Below are positions 1 to 13,845 of a DNA stretch of 21,163 bases, one piece after another (the stretch's first letter is position 1; the number at the start of each line of letters is the position of its first letter). Both the position numbers and the translations under genes were made by a program. Source of the DNA: Bdellovibrionota bacterium (GTDB taxonomy: Bacteria; Bdellovibrionota_C; UBA2361; JBGSMV01); assembly GCA_044356455.1 (NCBI GenBank), contig JBIKWF010000073.1:1-21163 (forward strand), in the 5' to 3' direction. The notes under the pieces were generated by a model. The model did no database searches, was not told where the DNA came from, and saw only the letters and a program-made list of their open reading frames with translations.

Positions 1-817
1 CCAATTTTTTCTGGGAGAGAGAGGGGCGAAACCTAGGCTCGTAGAAGAAGCTCTGAAAGACCGTCTCGGTCACTTTAAAGTTAATATCATTTCCAATCAT
101 GTCCATGAGCTCAAAGGGTCCCATGCGGAAACTTCCGAGTTCCTTCATGGCCCAATCGATGGTGGCATGGTCGGCGATTCCCTGGTCATAGATGCGCAGG
201 GCCTCGGTGTAAAAAGGTCTGGCGACTCTATTCACAATAAAGCCAGGGGTATCCTTGGTGCGCACCGTCTTCTTACCCCAGCCGCGTATAAGGTGCGTCA
301 CTGATATGAGTGTCTCCTCAGGAGTCCCGACCCACGGGACAACCTCTACCAGCGCCATAAGTGGAGCCGGATTGAAGAAGTGTACGCCGAGCACCCGCTT
401 GGGATGCTGAGTCGCGGTGGCGAGGGCGGTAACGGAAAGGGATGAGGTGTTGGTCGCAATAATACAGCTTTCACTCACAATATGATCAAGCTGCTGGAAG
501 AGGTCTTGCTTGACACTCATATCCTCAAGGATTGCCTCTACCACTAACTTACAGTGCGACAGGCCCCTTAAACCATCAGCGAACGTTATGCGACGCTTTA
601 CTTCCTCTGCTTCTTGAGACGTGAGCGTGCCCTTTTCCACCAGCCGCGCAAAAACCTTGGCTAAATTTGACCGCGCATTTACCAAGGCCTCATTTGTTGA
701 GTCGTAGAGAACGACTTTGTGACCGTGCTGAGCGGCGAGCTGCGCAATGCCGGTTCCCATGGTGCCAGCACCAATAACTCCAATGGTTGATGTTCTATCA
801 AGAACGCTATGCATCAT
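1..817 (-). CDS. paaH: 3-hydroxyacyl-CoA dehydrogenase (PaaH, 3-hydroxyadipyl-CoA dehydrogenase-like); 3' end truncated by window edge
   Basis: Not in the ORF track. Manual translation from ATG 817 gives MMHSVLDRTSTIGVIGAGTMGTGIAQLAAQHGHKV (Rossmann GxGxxG). Near the window edge the same frame reads FRMGPFELMDMIGNDINF..FFYEPRFRPS, typical of this family. It starts 7 nt after the paaG stop. Confidence 0.88.
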   Translation of the reverse strand, partial: MMHSVLDRTSTIGVIGAGTMGTGIAQLAAQHGHKVVLYDSTNEALVNARSNLAKVFARLVEKGTLTSQEAEEVKRRITFADGLRGLSHCKLVVEAILEDMSVKQDLFQQLDHIVSESCIIATNTSSLSVTALATATQHPKRVLGVHFFNPAPLMALVEVVPWVGTPEETLISVTHLIRGWGKKTVRTKDTPGFIVNRVARPFYTEALRIYDQGIADHATIDWAMKELGSFRMGPFELMDMIGNDINFKVTETVFQSFFYEPRFRPSLSQKKL

Positions 818-824
818 GGTGCCT

Positions 825-1622
825 CTACTTGCCTGTAAATACGGGCGCTCTTTTTTCAAAGAAAGCGCTCACACCTTCGATAAAATCCTCAGATTTCCCC
901 GCGAGACTCTGGAGCTCTCTTTCAAGCTCTAGCTGCTCTTCAAGGGAATTAGAGAGCGACGCATTCAGCCCACGTTTCATAAGGCCAAATCCTCTGGTGG
1001 GCTGTGTCGCAAGCTGCACGGCAAGCTTGGTAGCTTCGGTCATCAGCTCGGAGCCTTCGACTACGCGATAAATCAGCCCAAGCTGCTGGGCTTGCTCCGC
1101 GCTCACCTTTTCGGCCAGCATCGTAAGCGCCGTAGCACGCGCCATGCCGACCAAGCGCGGAAGAAAGAAGGAGCCACCGCAATCCGAAATGAGCCCCACC
1201 TTTGAGAACGATTGAATGAAAGAGGCTTCTTTTGCGGCAAGGGTGAGGTCGCACGCAAACGCAAGATTCGCCCCCGCCCCTGCGGCCACGCCATTAACTG
1301 CGCAGACCACCGGCTTCTCAATCGAACGAATGGCTTTTACTACCGGGTTATAACACTCAGCGATGATTCCCCCGAGGTCTGGGATCTTAGGCTTCGCCCC
1401 ACCTACCGGCGCAAACTCTGAAAGATCCTGACCGGCGCAAAAACCCCGCCCCGCCCCCGTGAGAAGAAGAGCTCGGACCGTCTGGTCCTGCTCGGCAGCC
1501 TTGAGGGCCAGAGCAAGCTCCTTCGACATTGGAGCAATAAAACTATTTAACTTGTCAGGACGATTCAGGGTCAGGTGCGCAACCCCCTGTGAAACCTCGT
1601 ACCGGATGTATTCGTAGCCCAT
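825..1622 (-). CDS. paaG: 2-(1,2-epoxy-1,2-dihydrophenyl)acetyl-CoA isomerase (crotonase fold)
   Basis: LTLNRPDKLNSF, GAGRGFCAGQDL, AVNGVAAGAGANLAFACD, FIQSFSKVGLISDCGG; GAGG SD upstream; paa context. Confidence 0.9.
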   Translation of the reverse strand: MGYEYIRYEVSQGVAHLTLNRPDKLNSFIAPMSKELALALKAAEQDQTVRALLLTGAGRGFCAGQDLSEFAPVGGAKPKIPDLGGIIAECYNPVVKAIRSIEKPVVCAVNGVAAGAGANLAFACDLTLAAKEASFIQSFSKVGLISDCGGSFFLPRLVGMARATALTMLAEKVSAEQAQQLGLIYRVVEGSELMTEATKLAVQLATQPTRGFGLMKRGLNASLSNSLEEQLELERELQSLAGKSEDFIEGVSAFFEKRAPVFTGK

Positions 1623-1762
1623 GGTGTTACCTCAGGCGGACTCTTTAGCAGAAAACCGCCCGGACGACCATTAAAGTCGCCCAAATTGCAGCGCCGAAGC
1701 TATCTGACGTAACAATAGTGACCTATTAGCTTTTTTGGTGTAATTCGCAGCCAGGGCCATAA

Positions 1763-1978
1763 TAGGGAATCTCTGAAAAACTTCGTTTTCCCCTCCGCGT
1801 CCTCGGCGTCCTCCGCGTTATTTTCCAATGTATCGCGCACCCGCAATGCTTTGGTTTAACGCGAAGCCGTCTGCGCCTTACGGCTGCGCCGAGCCTGGCT
1901 TAAGTGCGGCCGCGGCGCAGCTTTGGCGGAGCCGGGGACGCGAAGAGCACGAAGGAGGAATTTTTCAGAGGCGCCTTA
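1763..1978. repeat. Composite palindromic element: outer TAGGGAATCTCTGAAAAA/TTTTTCAGAGGCGCCTTA inverted repeats enclosing a 9-bp-periodic hairpin with a further insertion
   Basis: Outer arms 1763-1780 and 1961-1978 resemble those at 6940-7076. The inner left arm CTCCGCG-TC-CTCGGCG-TC-CTCCGCG-TTA (1793-1820) pairs with TAACGCGAAG (1857-1866) and GCCGGGGACGCGAAG (1931-1945). Confidence 0.75.
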
Positions 1979-2032
1979 GCTGCCCGGTTGTTGTTAAAGG
2001 CAGGTAAATCTTAAAACAGAGGCTTACTCCGC

Positions 2033-4120
2033 ATGGCACGCTCTTCTAATGACTGCGCTTCTGATGACCGTGATTGGAAGCGAATCTCATATCTCTCACT
2101 CGTCTCCCGCACGATTGACCAGCTGGAAGAAACGAAACTCGTCCCCGAAAAGAAGGTGCTCTATCAGTTCTCCGCGCGAGGGCATGAAGTCTCTCAGTGC
2201 ATTCTTTCTAGCTTTCTCACCCACAAGCACGATGCGGTGGGCGCTTACTATCGCTCTCGGCCAATTCTTCTCTCACTCGGGCTTAGTCTTGAGGACGCCA
2301 TAGCTGCTCCGATGGCTAAATCAGGAGGTTTTAGCGACGGACGTGACATCGGTGTTGTATGCAACTTGCCATCCAAGAATGGGCCTGTCGTTATACCTAT
2401 GTCGGGAGATGTAGGCTCGCAATTTACGCCTGCGGTCGGCTGGGCACAGGCCATCACGTACCGACTTGGCACTCTTAAAGATGAGAGTTATCGCGGCGCA
2501 ATTGCAGTCGCTCATACCGGAGACGGCGGAATTGCAACCAATGGATTCTGGGCCGCACTCACCATAGCAACAACCCTCAAACTTCCGATGCTTTTCTTTC
2601 TTGAGGATAATGGCTTCGGCATCTCAGTTCCGGGCGTTCGCCAGACTCCGGGCGGAAATATTGCTGAGAACCTCGCCTCGTTTAAGAACCTCTTTATTGT
2701 TCAAAGCGATGGCACCGATCCTAAAGATGCGGCTTCTGCCGCCGAAAAGGCAGTTGCGCATGTGCGGGCCGGTAACGGCCCCGCACTTCTTCGCGCGTCA
2801 GTGCCAAGACTCTCGGGGCATTCTGGTCAGGACACGCAAGCGTACAAGAGTAAGGAACAAATCGAATCAGAGCGAGCACGCGATCCACTTCCTAAGCTGA
2901 AATCTTTTATGGCTTCCCAGGGGCTCAGCGACGGTGGATGGAGCGCTCTTGAGAAGCAAGCTCACGATGACGTTGCCGCATCTCTTGAGAAAGCCTTGGC
3001 GCGCCCTGAGCCCAAGACCGCAACTATCCATCGGCATGTCTACTCTGAAACCCTGCCGAGCGGAGCTCCCGACCTTCAGCAAAGGGGTGGCCTGCTAACC
3101 GAAGGGCACAAGTTCCCTGACGCGACCGATACGCCAAATCCAGAACCGCAGCGCATTAATATGATCACGGCGATTCGGCGAACCCTTGAGAATGAACTTA
3201 AAATTAATCCTAAGGTACTCGTGTTTGGTGAGGACGTTGGCCCCAAGGGCGGAGTACATGCCGCAACCCTCGGGCTCCAAGAAACGTTTGGGGAAGCAAG
3301 AGTCTTCGACACGTCTCTTTCCGAAGAGGGAATTATAGGGCGCGCAGTTGGCATGGCGCTGAGTGGCCTCATGCCAGTCGCGGAGATCCAGTTTCGAAAG
3401 TATGCCGACCCCGCAACTGAACAACTTAATAACTGCGGCACCATACGCTGGCGCACCAACAACAGGTTCGCAGCTCCGATTGTGGTGAGAATGCCTGGCG
3501 GTTTCTTTAAATGCGGCGATCCTTGGCACTCGGTGAGCAGCGAGGTTCTTTGGGCCCACGCCATTGGCTGGCAAGTCTGCATTCCCTCAAATGCCGAAGA
3601 TGCCGTAGGACTTTTGCGTGCGGCTATGCGCAGCAATAACCCCACCATCTTCTTTGAACATCGCCATATGCTCGATACGCCCTGGGCGAGACGCCCCTAC
3701 CCTGGAGACAACTATGTACTCCCGATGGGGAAAGCGAAGCTGCACCAAGAAGGCACCCAGCTAAGCTGCATAACATGGGGCGCCATGGTTGAACGCTGCG
3801 AAGAAGCGGCGACGGCTTCTGGCCTCTCGGTTGATATTCTTGATTTAAGAACCATCATGCCGTGGGATAAGGAAGCGGTGCTGGCTTCAGTTAAGAAAAC
3901 TCGCCGCTGCTTAATCGTTCATGAAGACGGCCTTACTGCGGGTTTTGGTGCAGAAGTGGCAGCTACGGTGGCTGCGGAGTCATTCTTTAATCTAGATGCG
4001 CCCGTGCAGCGGGTAGCGGTTCCCGATCTTCCCATCCCCCACAATGTGGCACTGATGGAAGCGGTAGTTCCCAGTGTAGAAGTTATCTCCCAGGCCATGA
4101 TTTCGCTCTCAGAGGTATAA
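2033..4120 (+). CDS. 2-oxoacid dehydrogenase E1, fused alpha/beta subunits (branched-chain/aromatic type, TPP-dependent)
   Basis: Alpha part: YQFSARGHE, TPP motif GDGG...EDN, RLSGHSGQD loop. Beta part: VFGEDVGPKGGV, FDTSLSEEGIIG, AEIQF, FFEH, DLRTIMPWD, IVHED. 695 aa. Confidence 0.9.
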   Translation: MARSSNDCASDDRDWKRISYLSLVSRTIDQLEETKLVPEKKVLYQFSARGHEVSQCILSSFLTHKHDAVGAYYRSRPILLSLGLSLEDAIAAPMAKSGGFSDGRDIGVVCNLPSKNGPVVIPMSGDVGSQFTPAVGWAQAITYRLGTLKDESYRGAIAVAHTGDGGIATNGFWAALTIATTLKLPMLFFLEDNGFGISVPGVRQTPGGNIAENLASFKNLFIVQSDGTDPKDAASAAEKAVAHVRAGNGPALLRASVPRLSGHSGQDTQAYKSKEQIESERARDPLPKLKSFMASQGLSDGGWSALEKQAHDDVAASLEKALARPEPKTATIHRHVYSETLPSGAPDLQQRGGLLTEGHKFPDATDTPNPEPQRINMITAIRRTLENELKINPKVLVFGEDVGPKGGVHAATLGLQETFGEARVFDTSLSEEGIIGRAVGMALSGLMPVAEIQFRKYADPATEQLNNCGTIRWRTNNRFAAPIVVRMPGGFFKCGDPWHSVSSEVLWAHAIGWQVCIPSNAEDAVGLLRAAMRSNNPTIFFEHRHMLDTPWARRPYPGDNYVLPMGKAKLHQEGTQLSCITWGAMVERCEEAATASGLSVDILDLRTIMPWDKEAVLASVKKTRRCLIVHEDGLTAGFGAEVAATVAAESFFNLDAPVQRVAVPDLPIPHNVALMEAVVPSVEVISQAMISLSEV

Positions 4121-4123
4121 GTT

Positions 4124-5362
4124 ATGACTATAGCTTCCGCTCCCATAACCTTCTCCGCAGAACAACAAGAGGGGACTCAGTCGATTATCTCTCAGTGGTT
4201 CAAAAAAATTGGCGACCGAGTCAAGGAGAACGAACCTCTTGTTGAGGTGAGTACCGATAAAGTGAACGTTGAGATCGCCTCACCGGCCAGTGGGGTTCTC
4301 ACTGAAATTCTAAAAAAAGACGGCGACCAGCTTGCTCCCGGCGAAGTACTAGGAACTATCTCCCTTGGAGAGGCGGCTACCACAGGAGCTGCCGCAGGAG
4401 CCAAACCGGCCACCAGCGCGCCGCGAGCTGAAGCAGCCTCAAGCACCTCCGCTTCTGCCCCCTCCTCTGCCTCGCAGGATCTAAGTCCCGCCGTAAGAAA
4501 GCTTCTCAAGGAACACAATTTGCAGGCATCCCAGATAACGGGAACGGGCAAAGGCGGACGAATTACCCACGAAGATGTGAGCGCTTTTCTCGCTTCACGC
4601 ACCTCAGGGACAGAAAGCTCAAACTCAGCCTCTACGGCAACTGCTCTCGCCAGCAGAAAAGTCCCTCACACGCCCATGCGCAAACAAATCGCTCACCATA
4701 TGAGCGAAAGCTTGATGCGCGTCGCTCCACACGTTACTTCGATCTTCGAATGTGATTTGTCTTCTGTTATGGCGCACCGAGATGCCCACAAAGTTGAATT
4801 TGAGAAGAAGGGAGTTCGGCTCACCTTTACGAGCTATTTTGTCGTAGCAACCGCAAAAGCTCTTCAGGCTGTTCCTGAAGTAAACAGTCGCTTTCATGAA
4901 GATGCACTTGAGATTTTTGATGACTGCAATATCGGAGTCGCAGTCGCCCTGGAGCCCGGTAAGCACAGCGACTCAGGACTTATTGTCCCGGTGATTCATC
5001 ACGCGCAAAAGCGTTCGCTCTTTGAAGTTGCCGCCGAGCTGCAGCAGCTCACCGAGAAAGCAAAAGCCGGGACCATCGCAGGAGCGGACGTGAAAGGTGG
5101 AACTTTTACCATCTCCAATCACGGAGTCAGCGGTAGCCTTGTCGCCGCGCCCATCATCATCAATCAACCCCAATCAGCGATTCTTGGCATTGGAAAACTG
5201 GAGAAGCGGCCTGCCGTGGTAACAGAAAACGGCAAGGACACCATCCAGATTCGTCCTCGGATGTACGTAACCCTGACCCTCGATCACCGCGTTTTGGATG
5301 GGTTTAAAGCCAATGCCTTCCTCAGCACCTTTGTTGAAACACTTGAAGGGCAGTGGGTGTAA
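4124..5362 (+). CDS. Dihydrolipoamide acyltransferase (E2) of a 2-oxoacid dehydrogenase complex
   Basis: Lipoyl domain EVSTDKVNVEI, Ala/Ser-rich linker, peripheral-subunit-binding domain LSPAVRKL..GTGKGGRITHEDV, GGTFTISN, catalytic DHRVLDG. Starts 3 nt after the E1 stop. Confidence 0.93.
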   Translation: MTIASAPITFSAEQQEGTQSIISQWFKKIGDRVKENEPLVEVSTDKVNVEIASPASGVLTEILKKDGDQLAPGEVLGTISLGEAATTGAAAGAKPATSAPRAEAASSTSASAPSSASQDLSPAVRKLLKEHNLQASQITGTGKGGRITHEDVSAFLASRTSGTESSNSASTATALASRKVPHTPMRKQIAHHMSESLMRVAPHVTSIFECDLSSVMAHRDAHKVEFEKKGVRLTFTSYFVVATAKALQAVPEVNSRFHEDALEIFDDCNIGVAVALEPGKHSDSGLIVPVIHHAQKRSLFEVAAELQQLTEKAKAGTIAGADVKGGTFTISNHGVSGSLVAAPIIINQPQSAILGIGKLEKRPAVVTENGKDTIQIRPRMYVTLTLDHRVLDGFKANAFLSTFVETLEGQWV

Positions 5363-5369
5363 GGGAGGC

Positions 5370-5600
5370 TGGGCGCCCTGTTCCTCCTCTGCCAGGAGAT
5401 CTTGCGGCACCGCGGGGACGCGGCGCCCTACCCAGATACCAAACCACCAGGTAGGGCGCGCTGTCCCAGCGTGCCGAAAGATCCCGCGTCTCATTCTGAA
5501 TGGTTTCGACTTGCCGCCACTGGGCGAGTTGAAAGATCACGCGGCGCCCTGGGGACAGGACGCCCCACCAGGATGCCTCGCCTATGGGTAGGGCGCGCCG
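5370..5600. repeat. Cluster of GTAG-type REP palindromes (REPIN-like doublets)
   Basis: Arms at 5405-5431 (reverse; exact reverse complement of 7077-7103), 5451-5476 (forward) and 5542-5568 (reverse). Partial arms near 5370 and at 5588-5600. Confidence 0.85.
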
Positions 5601-5728
5601 AATCAAATGCTGGGCAGAATTAAACAATCGCGCCAAGCGCCTATAGCCTGCGCCCTTCTCAAGGTCCCACCTTGAACTCCGCCGCTAATTGGCGGAAAGT
5701 CTCGGGGTATCTATGGAGACCACGTTAC

Positions 5729-6943
5729 ATGGCCAAGATTAAGGTTAAGACCCCCCTCGTAGAACTAGACGGCGATGAAATGACAAGAATCATCTGGGAG
5801 ATGATTCGAACGCGTCTGATCCTGCCGTACCTCGACGTTGACCTTAAGTACTACGATCTTTCGATCGAAAACCGAGACGCTACCGGTGACAAGGTCACCG
5901 TAGAATCAGCAGAGGCCATCAAAAAATATGGCGTGGGCGTTAAGTGCGCCACCATCACTCCAGACGAAGCGCGGGTTAAGGAATTTAATCTTAAGCAGAT
6001 GTGGAAGTCGCCCAATGGCACTATCCGCAATATTCTTAACGGCACCGTGTTCCGCGAGCCCATCCTCTGCAGCAACGTTCCGCGGCTTGTCACCACCTGG
6101 ACTAAACCCATTGTCATTGGCCGCCACGCCTACGGCGACCAGTACCGCGCGACTGATTTTAAGGTACCAAGCGCTGGAAAAGTCACGATTACCTTTCAGC
6201 CGAATGATCCCTCACAAAAGAGCATATCCCACGAAGTCTTCGCCTTTCCGGGCGCTGGAATTGCGCTTGCGATGTACAATCTTGATGAATCAATTGTGAG
6301 CTTTGCGCGTAGTTCTCTCAACTACGGACTCTCCAAGCGCATGCCTGTATATCTTTCTACGAAGAATACCATTCTTAAGGTCTACGACGGCCGCTTTAAG
6401 GACATCTTCCAAGAGGTATACGACCGGGAGTTTAAGACGCGCTACGAAGCCGCAGGCATTACCTATGAGCACCGCTTGATTGACGACATGGTTGCAACTG
6501 CCATGAAATCAGACGGTGGATTCGTTTGGGCCTGTAAGAACTATGACGGAGACGTGCAGTCCGACAGCGTAGCCCAAGGCTACGGGTCTCTAGGACTCAT
6601 GACCTCAGTGCTCATGACTGAAGACGGAAAAACCATCGAAGCAGAGGCCGCTCACGGCACCGTTACCCGCCATTACCGCGAGCATCAAAAAGGCAAGGAA
6701 ACTTCGACCAATCCAGTAGCATCCATTTTTGCCTGGACGCGTGGGCTTATCTACCGCGGTCGGTTCGACAATACGCCTGAGGTTATCGCCTTCGCTGAAA
6801 AGCTTGAAGCGACCTGCATCAAGACGATTGAGTCAGGAAAGATGACGAAAGACCTTGCGATGTGCGTTCATGGCGCAAAGACCGAGAGAAAACATTATCT
6901 CTCCACCAAAGAGTTCTTCGATGCTCTGGTAGAAAATCTCTAG
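5729..6943 (+). CDS. icd: NADP-dependent isocitrate dehydrogenase (type II, homodimeric)
   Basis: [52 protein letters not shown]. Start moved to ATG 5729 (MAKIKV), with GGAG at 5715-5718. Confidence 0.96.
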
Positions 6944-7076
6944 GGAACCTCTGAAAAACATCGCTATTTTCTTTTTTCTCTCAGTGAGCTCTGTGTCCTC
7001 TGTGGTTTTTCAACAATTTAAATCAACCACAGAGAGCACAGAGTTCACAGAGCGGACGTTTTCAGAGATTCCCTAG
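6940..7076. repeat. Composite palindromic element (about 135 bp, MITE-like) with inner CTCTGTG/CACAGAG hairpin
   Basis: 18-bp terminal inverted repeats CTAGGGAACCTCTGAAAA / TTTTCAGAGATTCCCTAG (1 mismatch). Inner arms CTCAGTGAGCTCTGTGTCCTCTGTGGTT / AACCACAGAGAGCACAGAGTTCACAGAG. Clearly homologous to 13881-14016. Confidence 0.88.
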
Positions 7077-7195
7077 GTAGGGCGCCGCGTCCCCGCGGTG
7101 CCGCATGATCTTTGAACCCACCCCATGGTGGCAAATTGAAATCGGATTAGCATAGGCGAAAGAACATACGGCGCCCTAGGGACAGGGCGCCCTAC
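7077..7195. repeat. GTAG-type REP doublet (REPIN-like)
   Basis: GTAGGGCGCCGCGTCCCCGCGGTGCCG at 7077-7103 and inverted CGGCGCCCTAGGGACAGGGCGCCCTAC at 7169-7195. Confidence 0.88.
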
Positions 7196-7196
7196 C

Positions 7197-8162
7197 CTAG
7201 GCCGCGACATCGAGTCGACCGGCCGGCCTCTGAGCCAAGGTCTGCACGAGACCAGCTCCCGTTACCGTCGAGGCGCGAACGATGGCCTGTTCAATGGTAC
7301 CAATAAGCTCAAGATGCGCGAGAATATCCCGAGCATGCTGATAGCGGCGCTCTGGATTGCGATGCATGGCTTTTATTGAAAGTTCACTGAGAGAACGCGG
7401 CAACCCCGCCCGCACTTCACGCGGCGCCACAGGATCGAACCGTACCCGGCGAACAAGCGTATCAACTAAACTGTCGCCGCTAAAAGGAGCTCTCCCTGTC
7501 ATCAGCTCATAGGCAATCACGCCCAGTGCATAGATATCGGACCGCTCATCAAAAAAGCCATCCGCGATGTATTCAGGGCTGAGATAGTTCACTGTTCCTG
7601 CGAGCGCTTCCGCCTTCATTGAAGACACGCTCGCCGGGGCCGAAGAAATACCAAAGTCGGTTATCTTTACGGTACCGTCAGGAGTAAGGAGAATGTTCTC
7701 GGGTTTCAAATCGCGGTGAATAATCCCCGCCTCGTGAATCGCAACAAGCCCAGCCGTCACTTGGCGAAGAATATGAACAACTGCATCAACAGAGAGTTCT
7801 TTCTTTGACTCAAGAATATCAGCCAGCGTTCCTCCACTCACATACTCCATGGAGAACGCAACGAAACTTTCGTCCGAGAAGAACTCATAGGAGCGAACCA
7901 CATTGGGGTGGCGAAGCTTGAGACTAAGGGCGACTTCCTGGTGAAAAAGCTCACTCTGCTTGGCTTCACAGAGCGCCTGGTGAGAAAAGATTTTAAGCGC
8001 GCAGAAACTATCGTCTTCGTGAGACCGGCAAAGATATACTCCCCCGGTCTCTCCGGCGCTAAGGCAACGCACGAGCTCGAACTTCTTAAAGAGCGTCGTT
8101 CCGGGAAGTACATTTTCAAAGAACTGAAGATTCACAACTACATTCCTTTGGGGACAGCTCAC
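7197..8162 (-). CDS. Hanks-type serine/threonine protein kinase, catalytic domain only
   Basis: ALK, HPNVV, MEYVSG, HRDLKPEN, DFG, GTVNYLSPE, SDIYALG. Degenerate Gly loop (LSAGETGGVY). No TM or sensor domain seen; exact start uncertain. Confidence 0.92.
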   Translation of the reverse strand: MSCPQRNVVVNLQFFENVLPGTTLFKKFELVRCLSAGETGGVYLCRSHEDDSFCALKIFSHQALCEAKQSELFHQEVALSLKLRHPNVVRSYEFFSDESFVAFSMEYVSGGTLADILESKKELSVDAVVHILRQVTAGLVAIHEAGIIHRDLKPENILLTPDGTVKITDFGISSAPASVSSMKAEALAGTVNYLSPEYIADGFFDERSDIYALGVIAYELMTGRAPFSGDSLVDTLVRRVRFDPVAPREVRAGLPRSLSELSIKAMHRNPERRYQHARDILAHLELIGTIEQAIVRASTVTGAGLVQTLAQRPAGRLDVAA

Positions 8163-8190
8163 AATGAACGTCCACCCCCAGATCCGCCTT

Positions 8191-8218
8191 AGCCTATGGT
8201 TTGCTCCAGAATAGTCAA
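8191..8218 (-). promoter_or_regulatory. Putative sigma70-type promoter for the kinase gene
   Basis: Minus strand TTGACT-N16-TAGGCT, ending about 28 nt before the GTG at 8162. Confidence 0.4.
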
Positions 8219-8263
8219 AAATACTCCCCGAAAATGCCGCAACTATCTGAACTTGCTACACTT

Positions 8264-8315
8264 CCCCTTGGTGGTCTTAGTGGTTGATGCAATGAAAAAC
8301 AACCACTAAGGGGAG
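8264..8315. repeat. Short AACCAC-family hairpin
   Basis: CTTGGTG-GT-CTTAGTGGTTG (8267-8286) pairs with CAACCACTAAG (8300-8310); same motif as 15755-15785 and 14013-14059. Confidence 0.75.
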
Positions 8316-8364
8316 GTCCTCTCCATTCCCGCCGCTCCCAATCTGTCGTAGACATAACCGCACT

Positions 8365-9342
8365 ATGAGATCCCGCGTTGCGATCGTAAATTCATCAAGC
8401 TTTGGAAGAACCTTCCCTGAACACCTCGCAGCCCTCGAGTCTTTTGCGGAAGTAAGCAGGGTTGAAATTGCACGCGGAGCTGGGGAGAAGGAGGTCGTCA
8501 GCGCGCTGAGTAATTTTCAGGGCCTGATCTTAGGGGTAACCCCCCGACTCTCCAAAGGGGTGCTTGAACAACTCCCTTCCCTCAAACTACTCGCAAGACA
8601 CGGCATCGGAGTTGATTCGATAGACTTGGATGCTGCGCGCACATGCAACATTCTCGTAACACGCATCCCTGGAATCCTCGAGCAAACTGCAGTTGCAGAA
8701 CACACGATAGCCCTTCTACTCGCCCTCATGCGGAAAATCCCCGCGGCGCACCTGGCCGCAAGGCAAGGTGCATGGAGTTCTCGTGCTGATTTCGTGGGCT
8801 GTGAGCTTAAAGGCAAACCGGTAGGCGTAATTGGCCTCGGTAATACGGGGAGCCGAATCGCCGCAATTCTCAAAAATGGCTTTGGCGCCGAAGTGACGGC
8901 TGCTGACCCTTACCTATGGCCGGAAGTTGCCAAATCGCTGGATATCCCGCTGGTGGAGAGAGCTACTCTCTTTCGCTCCTGTGAAGTAATTATTCTCTGC
9001 GTCAATCTCTCTGACGAAACTCGGCAGATGATTGGAAGCACTCAAATTGATGCGATGAAAGAGGGCGCCCTGCTTATTAATGCCGCTCGCGGAGAACTGG
9101 TGGATGAAGCAGCGGTGCTCGCAGGCCTGGCTTCAGGAAAGCTGGCGGGCTATGCAACGGATGTACTCTCAGAGGAACCTCCATCCCCTACGCATCCCTT
9201 TCTCTCGCATCCTAAGGTTATTCTCACCCCACACCTTGGCGCCTACACAAAGGAATCACTGCACGCCATGGGCACGACCCTAGTTGAGCAAGTTCGAACA
9301 GTACTTGCCGAAGGTGGGGAACCGATTGGTCTGGTTCGTTAG
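8365..9342 (+). CDS. D-isomer-specific 2-hydroxyacid dehydrogenase (phosphoglycerate dehydrogenase-like, no ACT domain)
   Basis: ARHGIGVDSID, AVAEHT, GVIGLGNTG, LINAARGELVDE, DVLSEEP, TPHLGA (Arg/Glu/His catalytic set). Confidence 0.9.
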   Translation: MRSRVAIVNSSSFGRTFPEHLAALESFAEVSRVEIARGAGEKEVVSALSNFQGLILGVTPRLSKGVLEQLPSLKLLARHGIGVDSIDLDAARTCNILVTRIPGILEQTAVAEHTIALLLALMRKIPAAHLAARQGAWSSRADFVGCELKGKPVGVIGLGNTGSRIAAILKNGFGAEVTAADPYLWPEVAKSLDIPLVERATLFRSCEVIILCVNLSDETRQMIGSTQIDAMKEGALLINAARGELVDEAAVLAGLASGKLAGYATDVLSEEPPSPTHPFLSHPKVILTPHLGAYTKESLHAMGTTLVEQVRTVLAEGGEPIGLVR

Positions 9343-9428
9343 GAAACGCATTCCTCGGGTATCTTTGAAAACTGCTCGTTCCCTTTGGAGTTTTTCCCCG
9401 CAAGGTCTCTGAGAATCTGGGAAGAGAG

Positions 9429-9588
9429 TATGCATGGTAGGGCGCGCTGTCCCCAGCGTGCCGCAAGATCTCTCGTGCCGGCACGTGGCAAGTCCTAATC
9501 CACCTGCTGACCGCACAACTGCCAAAGGCCATGGAAGCCCCGCGGCATTTGTTCGGCACGCTGAGGACAGCGCGCCCTACCATGCATA
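9429..9588. repeat. GTAG-type REP doublet with 35-bp inverted arms
   Basis: TATGCATGGTAGGGCGCGCTGTCCCCAGCGTGCCG (9429-9463) versus 9554-9588, one mismatch in 35 bp; lies between convergent genes. Confidence 0.9.
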
Positions 9589-9696
9589 TTATCAACTGGC
9601 GTATTTCAAGTTGTAATCGGCAGCTCACATAACTTCGGACATGTGCTGCAAGATAAAGTCGCGCTTTCGGTTCTAAAAATTTGCCAACAGGCGCCT

Positions 9697-10194
9697 TCAA
9701 ATCGGCTTGAAAAACTCAAACGGCTGGCGGCATGCACCACAGAAATAGAACGCTTTACATGCCGTAGCGCCGAACTCACTTCGAAGTTCGGTTTTCTCCG
9801 ACTTACAGAATGGGCAAGGAACGTTGCGCCGGCTCTTTCCAATCGCGACAAGCTCTTCGCTCACGAGTCCAGGCGGCGCAATTCCATAGGCACGCAGCTT
9901 CTCCTTTCCCTCAGCACTCATCCAATCAGTAGTCCAGGGAGGAGAATATTTTCTGTGAGTAATAACCTTGGCGAATCCAGCCTTCATGAGCGCCGCGGTT
10001 ACATCACCTTCAATTACCGCCATGGCAGGACAGCCAGAATAGGTGGGCGTAATTTCAACGTGGAGCGCTTGCTCCCCCTCATCCCAGCGCACTTCTCGGA
10101 TGATGCCCATATCTAGGACACTCATCACAGGAATCTCAGGATCCATCACCTGAGCAAGAATCGAAGGCACGCTTGCAACGAGGTGCGCACTCAT
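9697..10194 (-). CDS. paaD: Phenylacetyl-CoA epoxidase subunit D
   Basis: DPEIPV, TPTYSGCPAM, PPWTTDW, CPFC, FGATACKAFYFC..C.QPFEFFK. Confidence 0.95.
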   Translation of the reverse strand: MSAHLVASVPSILAQVMDPEIPVMSVLDMGIIREVRWDEGEQALHVEITPTYSGCPAMAVIEGDVTAALMKAGFAKVITHRKYSPPWTTDWMSAEGKEKLRAYGIAPPGLVSEELVAIGKSRRNVPCPFCKSEKTELRSEFGATACKAFYFCGACRQPFEFFKPI

Positions 10195-10196
10195 AA

Positions 10197-11027
10197 CTAC
10201 CAGCGCGCATCAGGGTAGGAACGCGGAAGAATCTGCATTTCAGCGAGCAGCTTACCTAGATACTCGGTATGAAGTCCCTTTCGGCCACCCGTGTGCATAA
10301 AACAATCTGCGGGAAAGGTCAGAGTCGCCTCGCTGAAAATCTCTTTAACCTGCTTAGTCCATGCACTTTTCAGGCTACTAGAATCTGGAACACCAAGTTC
10401 TTGGCTGAGCAATTTCTCAACGTCATCAGTAACAAACAACTCGCCTGAATAGGCCCAGATCTCGTCAAAAGCCCGTTGAATCTTGGTTCGACTTTCGTCA
10501 GTCCCATCTCCTAATCGCAGCACCCACTGGGCGCTGTGCCGAAGGTGATAGGTGTCCTCTTTCAATGTCTTGGCCGCAAGTCCCGCAAGCTCAGGGAATC
10601 GGCACTTTTGCAAGTGCTCCATGAGAAGCACTGCGTAGGCATCAAAAATAAAGTGCCGTGCAATCGTGAAGGCAAAATCACCTCTCGGGAGCTCCGCCAG
10701 TTTTACGTTTCGAAATTCGCGCTCGCCTCTAAAAAAGGCGAGCGTATCTTCCGTGCGCTCAGCTCCTTCAAGCCGCCCAGCCAAGCCCAGAAACGCCTGA
10801 GCATGTCCAATCAGATCAAGAGCCACATTTCCGAGTGCAAGATCTTCTTCAAGGATAGGACCGTGCCCACACCACTCGGAAAGGCGATGCCCAAGAATAA
10901 GCCTATCGTCCCCAATTCGGAGAAGGTACTCAAAAAGAGCCTTCTTCACCGAGGCTGAGAATACGGGAAGCTCTTGAGGCTTGTTGGTGGCCGCAGTAAC
11001 GCTAAGATTTTCTTCGTGCGTATCCAT
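10197..11027 (-). CDS. paaC: Phenylacetyl-CoA epoxidase subunit C
   Basis: LRIGDDRLILGHRLSEWCGHGPILEEDLALGNVALDLIGHA, KEDTYH, RLGDGTDES, HTEYLG. Confidence 0.95.
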   Translation of the reverse strand: MDTHEENLSVTAATNKPQELPVFSASVKKALFEYLLRIGDDRLILGHRLSEWCGHGPILEEDLALGNVALDLIGHAQAFLGLAGRLEGAERTEDTLAFFRGEREFRNVKLAELPRGDFAFTIARHFIFDAYAVLLMEHLQKCRFPELAGLAAKTLKEDTYHLRHSAQWVLRLGDGTDESRTKIQRAFDEIWAYSGELFVTDDVEKLLSQELGVPDSSSLKSAWTKQVKEIFSEATLTFPADCFMHTGGRKGLHTEYLGKLLAEMQILPRSYPDARW

Positions 11028-11028
11028 A

Positions 11029-11346
11029 TCAGAACACCTTTACGCCGCGAGGAACTTTATAAAATTGGGGATGACGATAGACCTTGTCTTGCGCGGGATC
11101 GAAAAACGGACCCGTATCTGCAGGCGAGCTCGCGGTAATCACGGAGGCTGGGACAACCCAAATACTCTTTACTTTTCCTCGACGCGCATAAACGTCGCGC
11201 GCGTTTTGAAGGGCGATTTCGCCATCTGGAGCATGAACACTTCCTGCATGCTCATGAGGGGAACCTTCCTCACCCTGTTGTACAAACACCTCCCAGACCG
11301 GCCATTCCGCACCCGTCGCACTTACCTTTCCAGCTTCTATTGCCAT
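11029..11346 (-). CDS. paaB: Phenylacetyl-CoA epoxidase subunit B
   Basis: WPVWEVF, HAGSVHAPD, ALQNARDVYARR, SIWVV, DKVYRHPQFY. Start set at ATG 11346 rather than TTG 11370. Confidence 0.95.
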   Translation of the reverse strand: MAIEAGKVSATGAEWPVWEVFVQQGEEGSPHEHAGSVHAPDGEIALQNARDVYARRGKVKSIWVVPASVITASSPADTGPFFDPAQDKVYRHPQFYKVPRGVKVF

Positions 11347-11448
11347 GACTCGAACCCTATCTCTAAACAAGCCCTACCATCTCATAACTGCACAGCTTCT
11401 TTGATTTACCGCGCTTATGCCCCGAAGATGGCTCCCAGAACAGCAAAA

Positions 11449-12387
11449 TTAGGCGGCCACTTTACGCGCCTGCTTTTGAGCATATGCCTCCGCAGCTTCG
11501 CGAACCCACGCCCCCTTCTCATGCGCATCCCGGCGAGCCTGGAGGCGCTCTTTGTTGCAGGGACCATTGCCTGAGATTACCTGGTGGAACTCTTCCCAGT
11601 TGATTTCGCCAAAATCCCAATCTTGCGTCTGCTCGTTGAACTTAAGTGCAGGATCAGGAAGGGTCAGATTCACTGCTTTCGCTTGGGGAACAGTGAGGTT
11701 AACAAAACGCTGCCTTAGCTCAGTGTTAGTCTTTCGTTTCACTTTCCAGCGCAAAAGCTCCTGGCTATTCGGCGAATCTTTATCTGAAGGACCAAACATC
11801 ATCAGAGCAGGCCACCAAAACCGGTTCACAGAATCTTGAACCATCTCCTTCTGTTCAGGTGTTCCATTAGCAAGAGTAGCGACTATCTCGTATCCCTGCC
11901 GCTTGTGAAAATTCTCTTCCTTGCAAATCCGCACCATCGCCCTCGCATAGGGGCCATAGGAAGTCTTGGCAAGCATGGTCTGATTTACAATTGCGGCTCC
12001 ATCAACAAGCCACCCAATCACTCCCATATCCGCCCACGACAGGGTCGGGTAGTTAAAGATATTTGAGTATTTGGCCTTCCCCGTAAGAAGCTGCTGAGTG
12101 AGCTCTGCTCGATCCATTCCAAGAGTCTCAGCGGCACAGTAAAGGTAAAGGCCATGCCCAGCCTCATCTTGAACTTTCGCAAGCAGAGAAATCTTGCGCT
12201 TAAGGCTAGGAGCCCTGGTAATCCAGTTGGCCTCAGGGAGCATCCCCACAAGTTCTGAATGCGCATGCTGCGAAATCATTCGGATCAGCTGAGAACTGTA
12301 GCGTTCTGGCATCCAGTCTTTAGGTTCAATTACCTCGCCCTTGGCAATTCTTTCTTCAAAGGCTTGGAGCTTCGCTGCATCATCCAT
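11449..12387 (-). CDS. paaA: Phenylacetyl-CoA epoxidase catalytic di-iron subunit A
   Basis: [44 protein letters not shown] (two ExxH motifs), MMFGP. Confidence 0.97.
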
Positions 12388-12475
12388 ACTGAGAAGACCT
12401 CGATTTTTGGTTTACGCCTTTTCGTCGAAATGTGCCCAAGAACCTTACGCTCTTATAGGGCATCAGAAAGTTTTC

Positions 12476-12555
12476 ACCACAAAGGACGCAAGGGACACAA
12501 AGGAATACATTGAAATTGCTATTTTTAATTGAGCTTTCTTTGCGTCCTTTGTGGT
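12476..12555. repeat. 9-bp-periodic ACCAC-family inverted repeat (arms in the opposite arrangement)
   Basis: ACCACAAAGGACGCAA (12476-12491, continuing GGGACACAAAG) pairs perfectly with TTGCGTCCTTTGTGGT (12540-12555). Confidence 0.8.
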
Positions 12556-12615
12556 CCAATAAAAGCTTAAGTAATTTTAGCGTTTTACGCCGAACATTCT
12601 TGCGCCCTGACGTTC

Positions 12616-13845
12616 TTAACTCTTTTTATCGAATTCTGCACGCATGGCGGCCTCAAACGAGAGTTCACCTCCGGCAGCTAAGGCACGCTTTGCGCCATCC
12701 TGACAGGCCTCCTCCAGGCGCTTGGCCGCCTCAAGCATGAACTTCATTTCAAACGAACCACTTCGCTTGGTGAGGTACTCCTCTACCGCGGTAAGATATC
12801 CCATCATTCCGCACAGTTCCGTGGGGCAATAGAGCCGGGCAGCCTTCTGTAAGCGCTCTGAGTCTTTGTGATCTGGCATTACAAGATTCTCGCATCCACA
12901 GATCACTTTTATTCGCGGATTATGAATAATCTGGTCAACTGTTTTTGAGTCAAGGGTGCCTCCGTTGGCATTCACCACCAAAGCATCGATGCCGAGGGCA
13001 AGTAGCGTCCCCTTCTCCTCGGGAGAGAAAACGCGAACTCCTCGCCGTGCAAGCTCTTGGCGCCGCGCGGGGTTAAACTCAACGACAAACATGCGCTTTA
13101 AGACGGAACTCCCGAGCACTTCTTCTAGTCTCTGCACGAGATGCTTACCGATATTTCCGTAACCGATGAGACCGATTGAAGCGGTGTGCGGATCAAGCCC
13201 AGCGCCCTTGAGCATTCCCAAGAGGCTATAGAGATTGCCCTCAGCGGTTGGCTCTGAGGTGTCAGCGAGAACACTGCCGTGGAAATGCTGATTGAGATAC
13301 TCAAGCGATGTGGTCTTCCCATCGGAGAGAACGCCATGCCCTAAATCCTGCCCCGTGGTGAGGAAAATGCCTGAGTGCTCCTCGAAATCGAGCATCGCCG
13401 AAATAGCAAAATCGAGCATTTTTATGTCATTCGGCTGGCCCACGCGAGAATCATTCCCGGGAAGCAGCACGCACTTTCCGCCGACAACCCTATCGAGATT
13501 CTTAATGCCTTGCGGACCACCCACTCGAATAACGCGTGACCAATAGACCTTTTCATCCATGCCGGTAGCGAGCCCAATGGCTTCGCGTTCTGGGCTAAAA
13601 TCTTTAGTCGCGGCGCGCGCCTCAGGAACTATTCGAAAACCACCCAGTGAGAGTTTTCCCGACTTAGGCTCCCCGCAGGTACCTATGCAAAGGACCCAGG
13701 GCTTAGAGAGATGTTTGTAGCGGTAGAGAGAAACGTCTTGATTGAGATCGGGGGCAAGCTTTCGGCACTCAGCCGGGGTAAGAACTTCCCGCTTAAACTC
13801 AGGCTCCGATGATCTTTCCATACTCTCCGCCGCGGTTACACGCAT
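12616..13845 (-). CDS. Divergent Glu/Leu/Phe/Val dehydrogenase family protein (possible phenylalanine dehydrogenase)
   Basis: Family motifs in order: SLGGFR (cf. ALGGTR), LATGMDEK (cf. LxxGMTYK), GGKCV (catalytic Lys), TGQDLG, DTSEPTAEG, Rossmann GYGNIG. C-terminal motifs are strongly diverged. Confidence 0.78.
   Translation of the reverse strand: MRVTAAESMERSSEPEFKREVLTPAECRKLAPDLNQDVSLYRYKHLSKPWVLCIGTCGEPKSGKLSLGGFRIVPEARAATKDFSPEREAIGLATGMDEKVYWSRVIRVGGPQGIKNLDRVVGGKCVLLPGNDSRVGQPNDIKMLDFAISAMLDFEEHSGIFLTTGQDLGHGVLSDGKTTSLEYLNQHFHGSVLADTSEPTAEGNLYSLLGMLKGAGLDPHTASIGLIGYGNIGKHLVQRLEEVLGSSVLKRMFVVEFNPARRQELARRGVRVFSPEEKGTLLALGIDALVVNANGGTLDSKTVDQIIHNPRIKVICGCENLVMPDHKDSERLQKAARLYCPTELCGMMGYLTAVEEYLTKRSGSFEMKFMLEAAKRLEEACQDGAKRALAAGGELSFEAAMRAEFDKKS

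What the first reader, a model, noticed from the sequence alone, without database searches (positions are those of the whole stretch)
825..13845. Candidate PaaK-independent phenylalanine catabolic route: amino acid dehydrogenase + fused-E1/E2 complex feeding the Paa epoxidase
Seen: a Leu/Phe/Val-type dehydrogenase directly upstream of and co-oriented with paaABCD, and a fused E1 plus E2 pair divergent from paaG-paaH. No paaK, phenylpyruvate decarboxylase, aldehyde dehydrogenase or iorAB lies in the window. Established: PheDH makes phenylpyruvate, 2-oxoacid dehydrogenase complexes turn R-CO-COOH into R-CO-CoA, and the substrate of PaaABC(D)E is phenylacetyl-CoA. Inference: Phe -> phenylpyruvate -> phenylacetyl-CoA directly via a lipoate-dependent phenylpyruvate dehydrogenase, with no free phenylacetate and no ATP-dependent ligase. 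This is not part of the canonical E. coli/Pseudomonas paa pathway. Caveats: unrelated genes (icd, kinase) interrupt the cluster, and paaK could lie left of the window.
Basis: partly seen in the sequence, partly recalled or inferred. Interest (0 to 1): 0.8.

Follow-up and report, generated by a model that had tools for sequence, protein, structure and literature searches.

The report
Ligase-free phenylalanine route into Paa pathway
This lake bacterium has the genes that break down phenylacetyl-CoA, but the usual enzyme that makes it was not found in its draft genome; beside them lie an unusual amino acid dehydrogenase and an extra 2-oxoacid dehydrogenase that likely turn phenylalanine straight into phenylacetyl-CoA, a step not yet assayed.

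Summary
Observation confirmed; interpretation largely supported, enzymes untested. The window holds paaG-paaH', a fused E1 plus E2, paaABCD and a divergent Leu/Phe/Trp-dehydrogenase-fold protein. The genome (93% complete) shows no paaK, iorA, 2-oxoacid:ferredoxin oxidoreductase or phenylpyruvate decarboxylase, and has a separate PDH and BCKDH-like E1. paaH continues on contig C25 into paaI-paaJ-paaY, without paaK. The E1 and its E2 form their own clades. In 178 genomes from three lineages, all 38 with this E1 carry paaA, none of 118 without paaA has it, and only 2 of the 38 have a PaaK-like ligase. The dehydrogenase keeps the catalytic and pocket residues listed for a phenylalanine dehydrogenase, and its relatives sit between hppD/hmgA and paa genes. 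Best reading: Phe to phenylpyruvate to phenylacetyl-CoA by a lipoate-dependent complex (about 0.7). Against: no assay; 20 of 60 paaA genomes have neither E1 nor PaaK; many Proteobacteria keep both. The chemistry has biosynthetic precedent (PglB/C, ripostatin). This scan noted the same system before in seven findings on other genomes, one with this dehydrogenase. S. meliloti 1021 offers a ready test.

The parts
2..817 (-). paaH, 3-hydroxyacyl-CoA dehydrogenase, 5' part; the gene continues on contig C25, followed by paaI, paaJ, paaY
   Evidence: Pfam 3HCDH. A relative's 394-aa PaaH maps residues 1-272 to this contig and 283-393 to C25:2-334
825..1622 (-). paaG, epoxide/oxepin-CoA isomerase
   Evidence: TIGR02280 359.5 bits, over cut-off
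2033..4120 (+). fused E1 alpha-beta of a paa-linked clade; candidate phenylpyruvate dehydrogenase E1
   Evidence: Pfam domains; own clade, SH 100, stem 0.84; catalytic residues kept, pocket loop distinct; model pLDDT 90
4124..5362 (+). dedicated E2 (lipoyl domain, E3-binding domain, acyltransferase); candidate phenylacetyl transferase
   Evidence: Pfam; lipoyl-Lys motif at 44-47 and catalytic His motif at 387-393; clade of 27 E2s apart from E. coli SucB, SH 99
9697..10194 (-). paaD
   Evidence: TIGR02159 over cut-off
10197..11027 (-). paaC
   Evidence: TIGR02158 over cut-off
11029..11370 (-). paaB
   Evidence: TIGR02157 over cut-off
11449..12387 (-). paaA, diiron epoxidase subunit
   Evidence: TIGR02156 507.7 bits
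12616..13845 (-). divergent ELFV-fold amino acid dehydrogenase; candidate aromatic (Phe/Tyr) amino acid dehydrogenase
   Evidence: Fold match to LeuDH/TrpDH/PheDH; hhalign to LeuDH-type proteins, probability 97.3; pocket residues invariant in 120 of 120; neighbours paa, hmgA, hppD
5729..9342 (.). interrupting genes, not part of the system: icd (5729-6943 +), Ser/Thr kinase (7197-8162 -), D-2-hydroxyacid dehydrogenase (8365-9342 +)
   Evidence: icd and the hydroxyacid dehydrogenase in 0 of 98 related loci; the kinase was not checked in relatives

Best explanation
The window encodes paa ring-opening genes, a fused thiamine-dependent E1 with its own E2, and a divergent amino acid dehydrogenase, which together likely convert phenylalanine to phenylpyruvate and then directly to phenylacetyl-CoA without free phenylacetate or an ATP-dependent ligase. 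Step 1 (inferred): the ELFV-fold enzyme deaminates Phe with NAD(P)+, and probably Tyr too, which would go on to HppD/HmgA encoded on contig C97. Step 2 (inferred): E1 decarboxylates phenylpyruvate on ThDP and passes the phenylacetyl group to the lipoyl arm of E2, which transfers it to CoA. The genome's one E3 candidate (C159) would reoxidise the arm, and LipA (C116) would supply lipoate. Step 3 (established pathway; genes shown): PaaABC(D), PaaG, PaaZ, PaaJ, PaaH and an enoyl-CoA hydratase degrade phenylacetyl-CoA. Here the epoxidase lacks a recognisable PaaE, so its reductant is unknown.
For: Own genome: no PaaK by HMM or by tblastn with E. coli PaaK; no IorA; no POR family; the only PF02776 enzyme is MenD. 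paaZ, paaI, paaJ and paaY lie on C25. Separate PDH (C133) and BCKDH-like fused E1+E2 (C87) are present. Co-occurrence: own order 11 E1 genomes, all among the 12 with paaA, 0 of 29 others; phylum sample around G041, 21 of 21, 0 of 49; phylum sample around G042, 6 of 6, 0 of 40. PaaK-like ligase in only 2 of these 38. 34 of 34 E1-selected genomes carry paaA. A paa gene lies within 10 kb in 52 of the 80 best GTDB loci. The E1 neighbours are what a Phe feeder would need: a divergent Lrp in 33 of 80, a HisC-family aminotransferase directly before E1 or after E2 in 17 of 80, or this dehydrogenase directly after E2 (G012, L048). In S. fredii NGR234 a PaaX-like repressor gene adjoins Lrp-E1-E2. E1 keeps the ThDP and catalytic residues but has an invariant pocket loop unlike that of 19 housekeeping fused E1s. 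The dehydrogenase matches the B. halodurans PheDH pocket list (PMC9728165, passages) at L67-G68-G69, M96, K99, K124, G165, D167 and N320. G165 aligns with the Ala of LeuDH-type proteins. Its relatives have paaA downstream in 27 of 31 and hmgA upstream in 24 of 45 metagenome loci long enough to show it. Precedent for the chemistry: PglB/C 'suggested' (PMC7089894, passages) and the ripostatin PDH-like complex (PMC5490192, passage).
Against: No enzyme assay, mutant or expression data were found. 20 of 60 paaA genomes in the samples have neither this E1 nor a PaaK-like gene, and 17 of them checked show no E1 near paaA, so other unknown entries exist or generic BCKDH suffices. PaaK coexists with the E1 in 9 of 34 E1-selected genomes and 10 of 80 loci. 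The dehydrogenase is missing from 4 of 6 E1 genomes of the G042 sample and all 23 tested genomes of the G041 group, and from G009. A 37% paralogue occurs in 3 genomes without paaA. Two pocket positions differ from PheDH (Y350 and A353 for L305 and V308). A Shinella plasmid with Lrp-E1-E2 has no paaA, and S. fredii NGR234 has none within 20 kb; chromosomes were not searched. No SucB orthologue is assembled in this genome, so the window E2 might also serve SucA. The genome is in 216 contigs (93% complete) and has unassigned AMP-binding ligases. Sampled genomes are kin (11 of the 21 in the G041 sample group with Balneolaceae in the tree), so the counts overstate independence.
Confidence: 0.7

Rival explanations
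1. The E1/E2 is a broad-specificity, BCKDH-like complex for hydrophobic 2-oxoacids (branched-chain, Met- and aromatic-derived). It is co-inherited with paa genes because phenylpyruvate is one of several substrates, and it is not a dedicated phenylpyruvate dehydrogenase.
For: Closest solved relatives are PDH and BCKDH subunits. Lrp control resembles bkdR (recalled). 19 paaA genomes of the G041 sample have neither this E1 nor PaaK, which suggests ordinary BCKDH may make phenylacetyl-CoA.
Against: A BCKDH-type fused E1 with the usual pocket loop coexists in this genome and in 8 of the 21 E1 genomes of the G041 sample at the threshold used. The clade was never found without paaA in 118 genomes, and its pocket loop is replaced in 66 of 66 rows.
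Confidence: 0.14
2. E1/E2 acts on a related aryl-2-oxoacid (4-hydroxyphenylpyruvate or indolepyruvate) or on a product downstream of the Paa pathway, while phenylacetyl-CoA comes from an unrecognised ligase or CoA transferase.
For: The dehydrogenase family is tied to hppD/hmgA as well, and its best HMM hit is a tryptophan dehydrogenase. The genome has 8 AMP-binding hits, not all assigned.
Against: hppD/hmgA occur in 0 of 80 E1 loci. The known Paa pathway has no 2-oxoacid intermediate (PMC9493321 and PMC13186573, passages). E1 tracks paaA, whose known substrate is phenylacetyl-CoA.
Confidence: 0.09
3. The pair is part of central metabolism, for example an alternative 2-oxoglutarate dehydrogenase or the E2 partner of SucA, sitting beside icd, and the paa link is incidental.
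For: The E2's best NCBIfam hit is SucB (310 bits, below the 449 cut-off). icd follows E2 in the window. No SucB is assembled. An older tree groups SMb20019 with SucB (PMC1500873, passage).
Against: icd lies near the E1 in 0 of 98 related loci. The E2s form a clade apart from E. coli SucB. SucA is present (C13/C31). 29 of 41 genomes of the same order lack both this E1 and paaA.
Confidence: 0.04
4. The E1/E2 reading is right, but the divergent dehydrogenase is not the Phe-deaminating step (for example it is Tyr- or Trp-specific, or works on another substrate), and Phe is transaminated by housekeeping aminotransferases.
For: It is absent from most E1 genomes outside this order. Two loci have hppD/hmgA but no paaA (L121, L139). 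Pocket residues Y350 and A353 differ from PheDH.
Against: It sits upstream of paaA in 27 of 31 loci, directly after E2 in G012 and L048, and is found in 11 of 12 paaA genomes of the order.
Confidence: 0.2

Closest known systems
Branched-chain 2-oxoacid dehydrogenase complex (Thermus thermophilus E1 1UM9; Pseudomonas putida 1QS0)
   Same: alpha/beta-type ThDP E1 fold (beta part TMt 0.89-0.94, 37-41% identity); lipoyl E2; inferred acyl-CoA formation; often a divergent Lrp gene
   Different: alpha and beta fused; the pocket loop and several active-site neighbours are fixed differently; inherited with paa genes; a housekeeping BCKDH-like E1 is kept separately
PglB/PglC of Streptomyces pristinaespiralis (L-phenylglycine operon)
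   Same: PDH-like E1 suggested to turn phenylpyruvate into phenylacetyl-CoA (PMC7089894, passages)
   Different: biosynthetic, split subunits, and the gene list read names no E2; reaction only 'suggested' in what I read; sequences were not compared here
Ripostatin pyruvate-dehydrogenase-like complex (Fu et al. 2017, seen only as cited in PMC5490192)
   Same: decarboxylates phenylpyruvate and keeps the phenylacetyl group thioester-bound, avoiding free aldehyde
   Different: loads a carrier protein for polyketide synthesis, not CoA for catabolism; sequences not compared
Indolepyruvate/phenylpyruvate:ferredoxin oxidoreductase (IorAB, Ior1)
   Same: same net step, phenylpyruvate to phenylacetyl-CoA without a ligase (recalled)
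   Different: Fe-S/ferredoxin enzyme, unrelated fold; not found in this genome
Phenylalanine, leucine and tryptophan dehydrogenases (1C1D, 7VID, 5B37; B. halodurans PheDH)
   Same: whole-length fold, both catalytic Lys, Asp and Asn, Rossmann glycine motif, PheDH-type Gly before the Asp motif
   Different: only 15-20% identity; missed by Pfam ELFV models; insertions; Tyr350/Ala353 in the side-chain pocket; no solved or named member found
Canonical E. coli paa pathway (paaZ, paaABCDEFGHIJK, paaXY)
   Same: paaA, B, C, D, G, H, I, J, Y, Z present, 58-67% identity for PaaA, PaaJ, PaaZ
   Different: no PaaK, PaaE or PaaX found; E1/E2 and dehydrogenase added

Membership tests
Lipoate-dependent 2-oxoacid dehydrogenase complex | ThDP-binding motif and catalytic residues in E1 | tested here: met
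   G163-D164...N193, R74, R259, H263, E451, H499; conserved in 65-66 of 66 clade rows, D/E at 164, aligned to 1UM9; residue roles recalled
Lipoate-dependent 2-oxoacid dehydrogenase complex | E2 with lipoyl-Lys domain, subunit-binding domain and catalytic His | tested here: met
   Pfam domains, motifs at 44-47 and 387-393
Lipoate-dependent 2-oxoacid dehydrogenase complex | E3 and lipoate supply in the genome | tested here: met
   E3-like ORF on C159 by motif only; LipA on C116 over cut-off; neither is in the window
Branched-chain 2-oxoacid dehydrogenase (BCKDH) | BCKDH-type substrate pocket loop (Gln-Met-Pro-x-His, as in the 1UM9 alignment) | tested here: not met
   Clade has Asp-Ile/Val-Gly-Val-Val/Ile; 16-19 of 19 housekeeping fused E1s keep Q, M, P, H; the loop's role in specificity is recalled
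Branched-chain 2-oxoacid dehydrogenase (BCKDH) | activity on branched-chain 2-oxoacids | not testable with these tools
   needs assay
Pyruvate dehydrogenase E1 (TIGR03181/03182) | HMM score over cut-off | tested here: not met
   142 vs 411 and 122 vs 394 bits; the genome's PDH is on C133
2-oxoglutarate dehydrogenase (SucA/SucB) | SucA-type E1 and SucB-clade E2 | tested here: not met
   E1 is alpha/beta type; E2 310 vs 449 bits and outside the SucB branch
Phenylpyruvate dehydrogenase (PglB/C- or ripostatin-like activity) | phenylacetyl-CoA formed from phenylpyruvate | not testable with these tools
   inferred from co-occurrence and neighbours only
Phenylpyruvate dehydrogenase (PglB/C- or ripostatin-like activity) | sequence kinship to PglB/C or the ripostatin enzymes | not tested
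   no tool supplied those sequences
Glu/Leu/Phe/Val dehydrogenase superfamily | two-domain fold with Rossmann domain | tested here: met
   Foldseek E 1e-14, TMt up to 0.77; ESM Atlas neighbours are ELFV clusters
Glu/Leu/Phe/Val dehydrogenase superfamily | catalytic Lys, carboxylate-binding Lys, Asp and Asn | tested here: met
   K124, K99, D167, N320 invariant in 120 of 120; K124, D167, N320 aligned by hhalign, K99 matched by motif, 2-3 columns off in the alignment
Glu/Leu/Phe/Val dehydrogenase superfamily | Pfam PF02812/PF00208 match | tested here: not met
   no hit at E 1e-3 for the window protein; a minority of relatives carry PF00208
Phenylalanine dehydrogenase (EC 1.4.1.20) | PheDH pocket residues (B. 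halodurans list, PMC9728165) | tested here: inconclusive
   9 listed positions identical, including Gly at 165 where LeuDH-type proteins have Ala; Q166, L168, Y350, A353 differ
Phenylalanine dehydrogenase (EC 1.4.1.20) | NAD-dependent deamination of L-Phe | not testable with these tools
   needs assay
Canonical paa pathway | PaaABC(D) epoxidase, PaaG, PaaZ, PaaJ, PaaH | tested here: met
Canonical paa pathway | PaaK ligase and PaaE reductase | tested here: not met
   genome 93% complete; PaaE also not found in 5 of 5 relatives and no PaaK-like hit above 200 bits in 12 of 12 paaA genomes of the order

The most novel reading that the evidence does not exclude
A widespread, uncharacterised fourth type of lipoate-dependent complex, a dedicated catabolic phenylpyruvate dehydrogenase, is the main way in which many paaK-less bacteria of at least eight phyla feed phenylalanine into the Paa pathway. 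In this lineage it is paired with a new family of aromatic amino acid dehydrogenases that routes Phe to Paa and Tyr to HppD, and with a PaaE-less epoxidase that uses an unknown reductant.
Probability: 0.55. Interest if true: 0.75.

Novelty: new variant of a known kind. Interest (0 to 1): 0.62.

Why it matters
The Paa pathway is reported in about 16% of bacterial genomes and is usually defined by its ligase; a 2026 survey of 6,536 genomes anchors its whole analysis on PaaK (PMC13186573, passages). In my samples only 4 of 60 paaA genomes had a PaaK-like gene, while 38 had this E1. If the reading holds, it fills the missing entry step for many of them and turns a 'phenylacetate pathway' into a phenylalanine pathway there. 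It would also correct annotations such as 'transketolase C-terminal domain protein' or 'pdh', and add a substrate class to the 2-oxoacid dehydrogenase complexes. The route saves the ATP of the ligase and avoids free phenylacetaldehyde. The divergent dehydrogenase family (over 1,000 hits, unnamed) may be a new source of aromatic amino acid dehydrogenases for biocatalysis. The homologue on S. meliloti 1021 pSymB makes the idea testable in a standard laboratory strain.

Tried and rejected
1) paaK left of the window: rejected; paaH continues on C25 into paaI-paaJ-paaY (inferred from the split gene, no sequence overlap). 2) Sole housekeeping BCKDH: rejected. 3) icd or the 2-hydroxyacid dehydrogenase (as a phenyllactate dehydrogenase) as part of the system: 0 of 98 loci. 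4) Glutamate dehydrogenase identity for the ELFV protein: Leu, not Lys, at position 67 (rule recalled), and GDH folds rank lower. 5) Gammaproteobacteria sample: E1 only in the centre genome, 1 of 111; paaA and paaK were not searched there, so it is left out of the counts. 6) Promoter scan of the paaG/E1 spacer: nothing above chance. 7) Sequencing runs: 24 lake-water DNA runs, no RNA holder listed; contigs of four runs cover the genes and break at intergenic repeats; no statement on expression. The 'clade' label was set by identity (50-74% vs 29-40%), so the shuffle test there is circular; only branch length and support count. 9) E1 fold search gave only generic PDH/BCKDH beta subunits; the pocket could not be measured. 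10) Ten literature searches found no description of a paa-linked E1/E2. The library lacks most subscription papers, Teufel 2010 was not held, and the S. wittichii RW1 supplements, which may hold Phe-induction data for such genes, could not be read. 11) No plasmid carries the divergent dehydrogenase. 12) No earlier scan note on this genome fitted. 13) Fisher tests were computed (p 1e-8, 5e-9, 8e-7, centres removed) but are not relied on, because kin are not independent.
Full report
1. Observation. The window is a whole contig (C32) of a 4.7-Mb draft genome in 216 contigs, 93.3% complete. Runs holding it are lake-water DNA. A close E1 relative (L027, 71%) comes from a record titled 'uncultured Bdellovibrionales bacterium'. 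Family scans confirm paaG and a cut paaH on the minus strand, the divergent fused E1 (695 aa) and E2 (412 aa), icd, a kinase, a D-2-hydroxyacid dehydrogenase, paaDCBA, and a 409-aa ORF 228 nt upstream of paaA.

2. The rest of the genome. A relative's PaaH maps 1-272 to the window's left end and 283-393 to the start of C25, which goes on with paaI, paaJ and paaY; paaZ lies further along C25. So what most likely lies left of the window is known, and it is not paaK. PaaK was not found by TIGR02155, by a PaaK from locus L060 or by E. coli PaaK. IorA and the POR family were not found. The one PF02776 enzyme is MenD, which leaves no phenylpyruvate decarboxylase candidate. PaaE and PaaX were not found either. 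Eight AMP-binding hits were found; of four scanned, one is acetyl-CoA synthetase and three could not be assigned, two of them resembling fatty-acid ligases. Other E1s: a split PDH (C133), fused E1s on C87 (with E2) and C167, and a split pair on C111. A LeuDH-type gene lies on C114, hppD and hmgA on C97, LipA on C116 and an E3-like ORF on C159. SucA is split over two contig ends and no SucB is assembled.

3. The E1/E2 pair. 52 of 80 loci hold a paa gene within 10 kb (38 of 52 loci of at least 15 kb); paaK occurs in 10, paaX in 22 and a divergent Lrp in 33. A HisC-family aminotransferase lies directly before E1 in 14 Balneolaceae loci and directly after E2 in 3 gammaproteobacterial loci. NCBIfam calls the one tested hisC; that this family includes aromatic aminotransferases is recalled. 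In a FastTree of 88 rows, 66 rows form one branch (SH 100, length 0.84), and the genome's C87 E1 falls with 18 other housekeeping-type fused E1s. 27 E2s found beside such E1s form their own branch (SH 99), apart from E. coli SucB and the C87 E2. ThDP and catalytic residues are kept. The loop read as Gln-Met-Pro-x-His in Thermus BCKDH and in most housekeeping rows is Asp-Ile-Gly-Val-Val in the clade, and Trp498 beside the catalytic His is invariant. That these line the substrate pocket is recalled, and that Trp498 stacks on the phenyl ring is a guess.

4. Genome-level test. Own order, 41 genomes: E1 in 11, paaA in the same 11 plus G008; PaaK-like hits above 500 bits only in 3 genomes without paaA, and G034 has a weak hit (141 bits) in a 761-aa ORF, which I did not count. 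Phylum sample around G041 (Ekhidna), 91 genomes: E1 clade (56-70%) in 21, all among 42 with paaA; PaaK-like genes in 17, of which only G071 and G079 have paaA and neither has the E1. Phylum sample around G042, 46 genomes: E1 in 6, exactly the 6 with paaA; PaaK-like in 2 of them. Together: 38 of 38 with paaA, 0 of 118 without, three centres included. A further 34 genomes picked for the E1 (31 of the 80 loci, one also in the G041 sample, plus G043-G045) all carry paaA, one as a partial gene; 9, all proteobacterial, also carry paaK. Against exclusivity: 20 of 60 paaA genomes have neither gene, and paaA regions from 17 of them show no E1. On plasmids the clade occurs in 90 records as Lrp-E1-E2 where inspected. 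It is 2 kb from paaA in Rhizobium AB2/73 and CCGE531, and on the same replicon as a paaK-less paa cluster in S. meliloti 1021. Sinorhizobium has 76 records with E1 but 64-65 with paaA or paaZ. In NGR234 no paaA lies within 20 kb, yet a PaaX-like gene adjoins the cassette. A Shinella plasmid has neither paaA nor paaK. Chromosomes were not searched.

5. The dehydrogenase. It has 1,012 relatives among 8,000 candidates scored, named 'hypothetical' or NAD(P)-binding where named. Model, fold search, profile search and Atlas place it with Leu/Phe/Trp dehydrogenases. Against the B. halodurans PheDH pocket list (PMC9728165, passages) it keeps L67-G68-G69, M96, K99, K124, G165, D167 and N320, all invariant in 120 of 120, and differs at Q166, L168, Y350 and A353. 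G165 aligns with the Ala of LeuDH-type proteins; that Gly here favours aromatic substrates is recalled. In the best 80 of 136 metagenome loci, paaA follows in 27 of 31 loci with 3 kb downstream, the E1 in 14 of 17 with 8 kb, and hmgA precedes in 24 of 45 with 1.5 kb upstream; hppD occurs in 24 of 80; paaK and paaE in 0 of 17. It is present in 11 of 12 paaA genomes of the order, with a 37% paralogue in 3 genomes without paaA. Outside the order it is in 3 of 80 genomes, all with E1 and paaA. In G012 and L048 it follows E2 directly. I read it as an aromatic amino acid dehydrogenase, one of at least two interchangeable deaminating partners.

6. Mechanism. Shown: genes, domains, catalytic residues, clades, co-occurrence, and failure to find known entries. 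Inferred: Phe to phenylpyruvate (dehydrogenase), phenylpyruvate to phenylacetyl-lipoamide (E1), transfer to CoA (E2), reoxidation by the shared E3. Established: the Paa steps after phenylacetyl-CoA (PMC9493321, passages). Confidence about 0.75 for the E1/E2 step and 0.7 for the overall reading. The first three rivals are alternatives to the E1/E2 step; the fourth concerns step 1 only.

7. What is known. PglB/C is 'suggested' to do this reaction in phenylglycine synthesis (PMC7089894, passages). A PDH-like complex does the decarboxylation in ripostatin synthesis (PMC5490192, passage citing Fu 2017, which I did not see). Pseudomonas tropolone clusters use a decarboxylase plus ligase instead (bioRxiv 10.1101/2024.04.03.587903, passages). 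The 2026 paa survey is PaaK-anchored and has no occurrence of 'phenylpyruvate' (PMC13186573, passages). GapMind's paper does not treat this step (PMC9007349, passages). In S. wittichii RW1 the paa cluster is higher on Phe (PMC3425912, passages; supplements unseen). SMb20020 is listed as 'pdh' (PMC12542648, passage); that this tag is the pSymB homologue is recalled, not shown. PMC11110157 and PMC4807370 (passages) give only the PaaK route. Ten searches (listed under Tried and rejected) found no report of this catabolic complex. Seven earlier notes of this scan reached the same idea on other genomes, one with this dehydrogenase; they are not independent evidence. I had the reading before opening them, and took the PglB/C lead from them.

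8. Verdict. A real, conserved feature; a new variant of a known kind of enzyme complex, probably filling a common gap in phenylalanine catabolism; untested biochemically. Interest 0.62.

Noticed in passing
window 9697-12387; G000, G001, G003, G009, G012, G023; L095-L174: The epoxidase genes have no PaaE reductase: best TIGR02160 scores are 28-63 bits against a cut-off of 421 in six genomes, and 0 of 17 long metagenome loci hold paaE. Thermus, which has paaA, also gave no hit in the control. The electron donor is unknown; an FNR-like ORF on C117 is the best weak hit.
   Followed up: partly
G000 C212:3900-4676; L099 and 54 other dehydrogenase loci: An enoyl-CoA hydratase-family gene, below all NCBIfam cut-offs, sits between the dehydrogenase and paaA in 55 of 80 loci and near paaZ in Bacteroidota loci; perhaps a PaaF stand-in.
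   Followed up: partly
G046, G053, G058, G063, G068, G069, G077, G083, G087, G089, G101, G103, G107, G109, G111, G113, G125, G127, G131, G008: paaA genomes with neither a PaaK-like gene nor this E1 clade: a further unknown entry to phenylacetyl-CoA, or another role for the epoxidase.
   Followed up: partly
G000 C13:1-1164 and C31:19459-21177: SucA is present, but only three E2 proteins are assembled and none is a SucB orthologue; the C87 E2 (best hit SucB_Actino) may be shared between complexes.
   Followed up: partly
window 1765-1960, 5397-5569, 6964-7076, 9436-9489, 12456-12607, 13899-13995: Several families of palindromic intergenic repeats (REP-like), with 43-575 blastn hits genome-wide per spacer; public contigs break at them.
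   Followed up: partly
L213, L214, L215 (G005, G025, G036): A 37% paralogue of the dehydrogenase with a changed N-terminal glycine motif lies beside a lipoprotein-like gene in genomes without paaA.
   Followed up: no
G017, G028, G039 and 15 genomes of the G041 sample: PaaK-like ligases (510-610 bits) in genomes without paaA; probably other aryl-CoA ligases, as the name 'phenylacetate-CoA ligase' does not fit.
   Followed up: no
L054, L067, L074, L081, L086, L088: A Rieske petA-like gene lies between E2 and paaX in six gammaproteobacterial loci, and alanine dehydrogenase lies upstream of Lrp-E1 in 15 of 80.
   Followed up: no
G000 C111:15600-17600: A split, divergent E1 pair with an E2-like neighbour inside what looks like a polysaccharide gene cluster.
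   Followed up: no
window 18949-21162 (-): A long ORF without a start in the window begins with an 8-residue Ala-rich tandem repeat running off the contig end.
   Followed up: no
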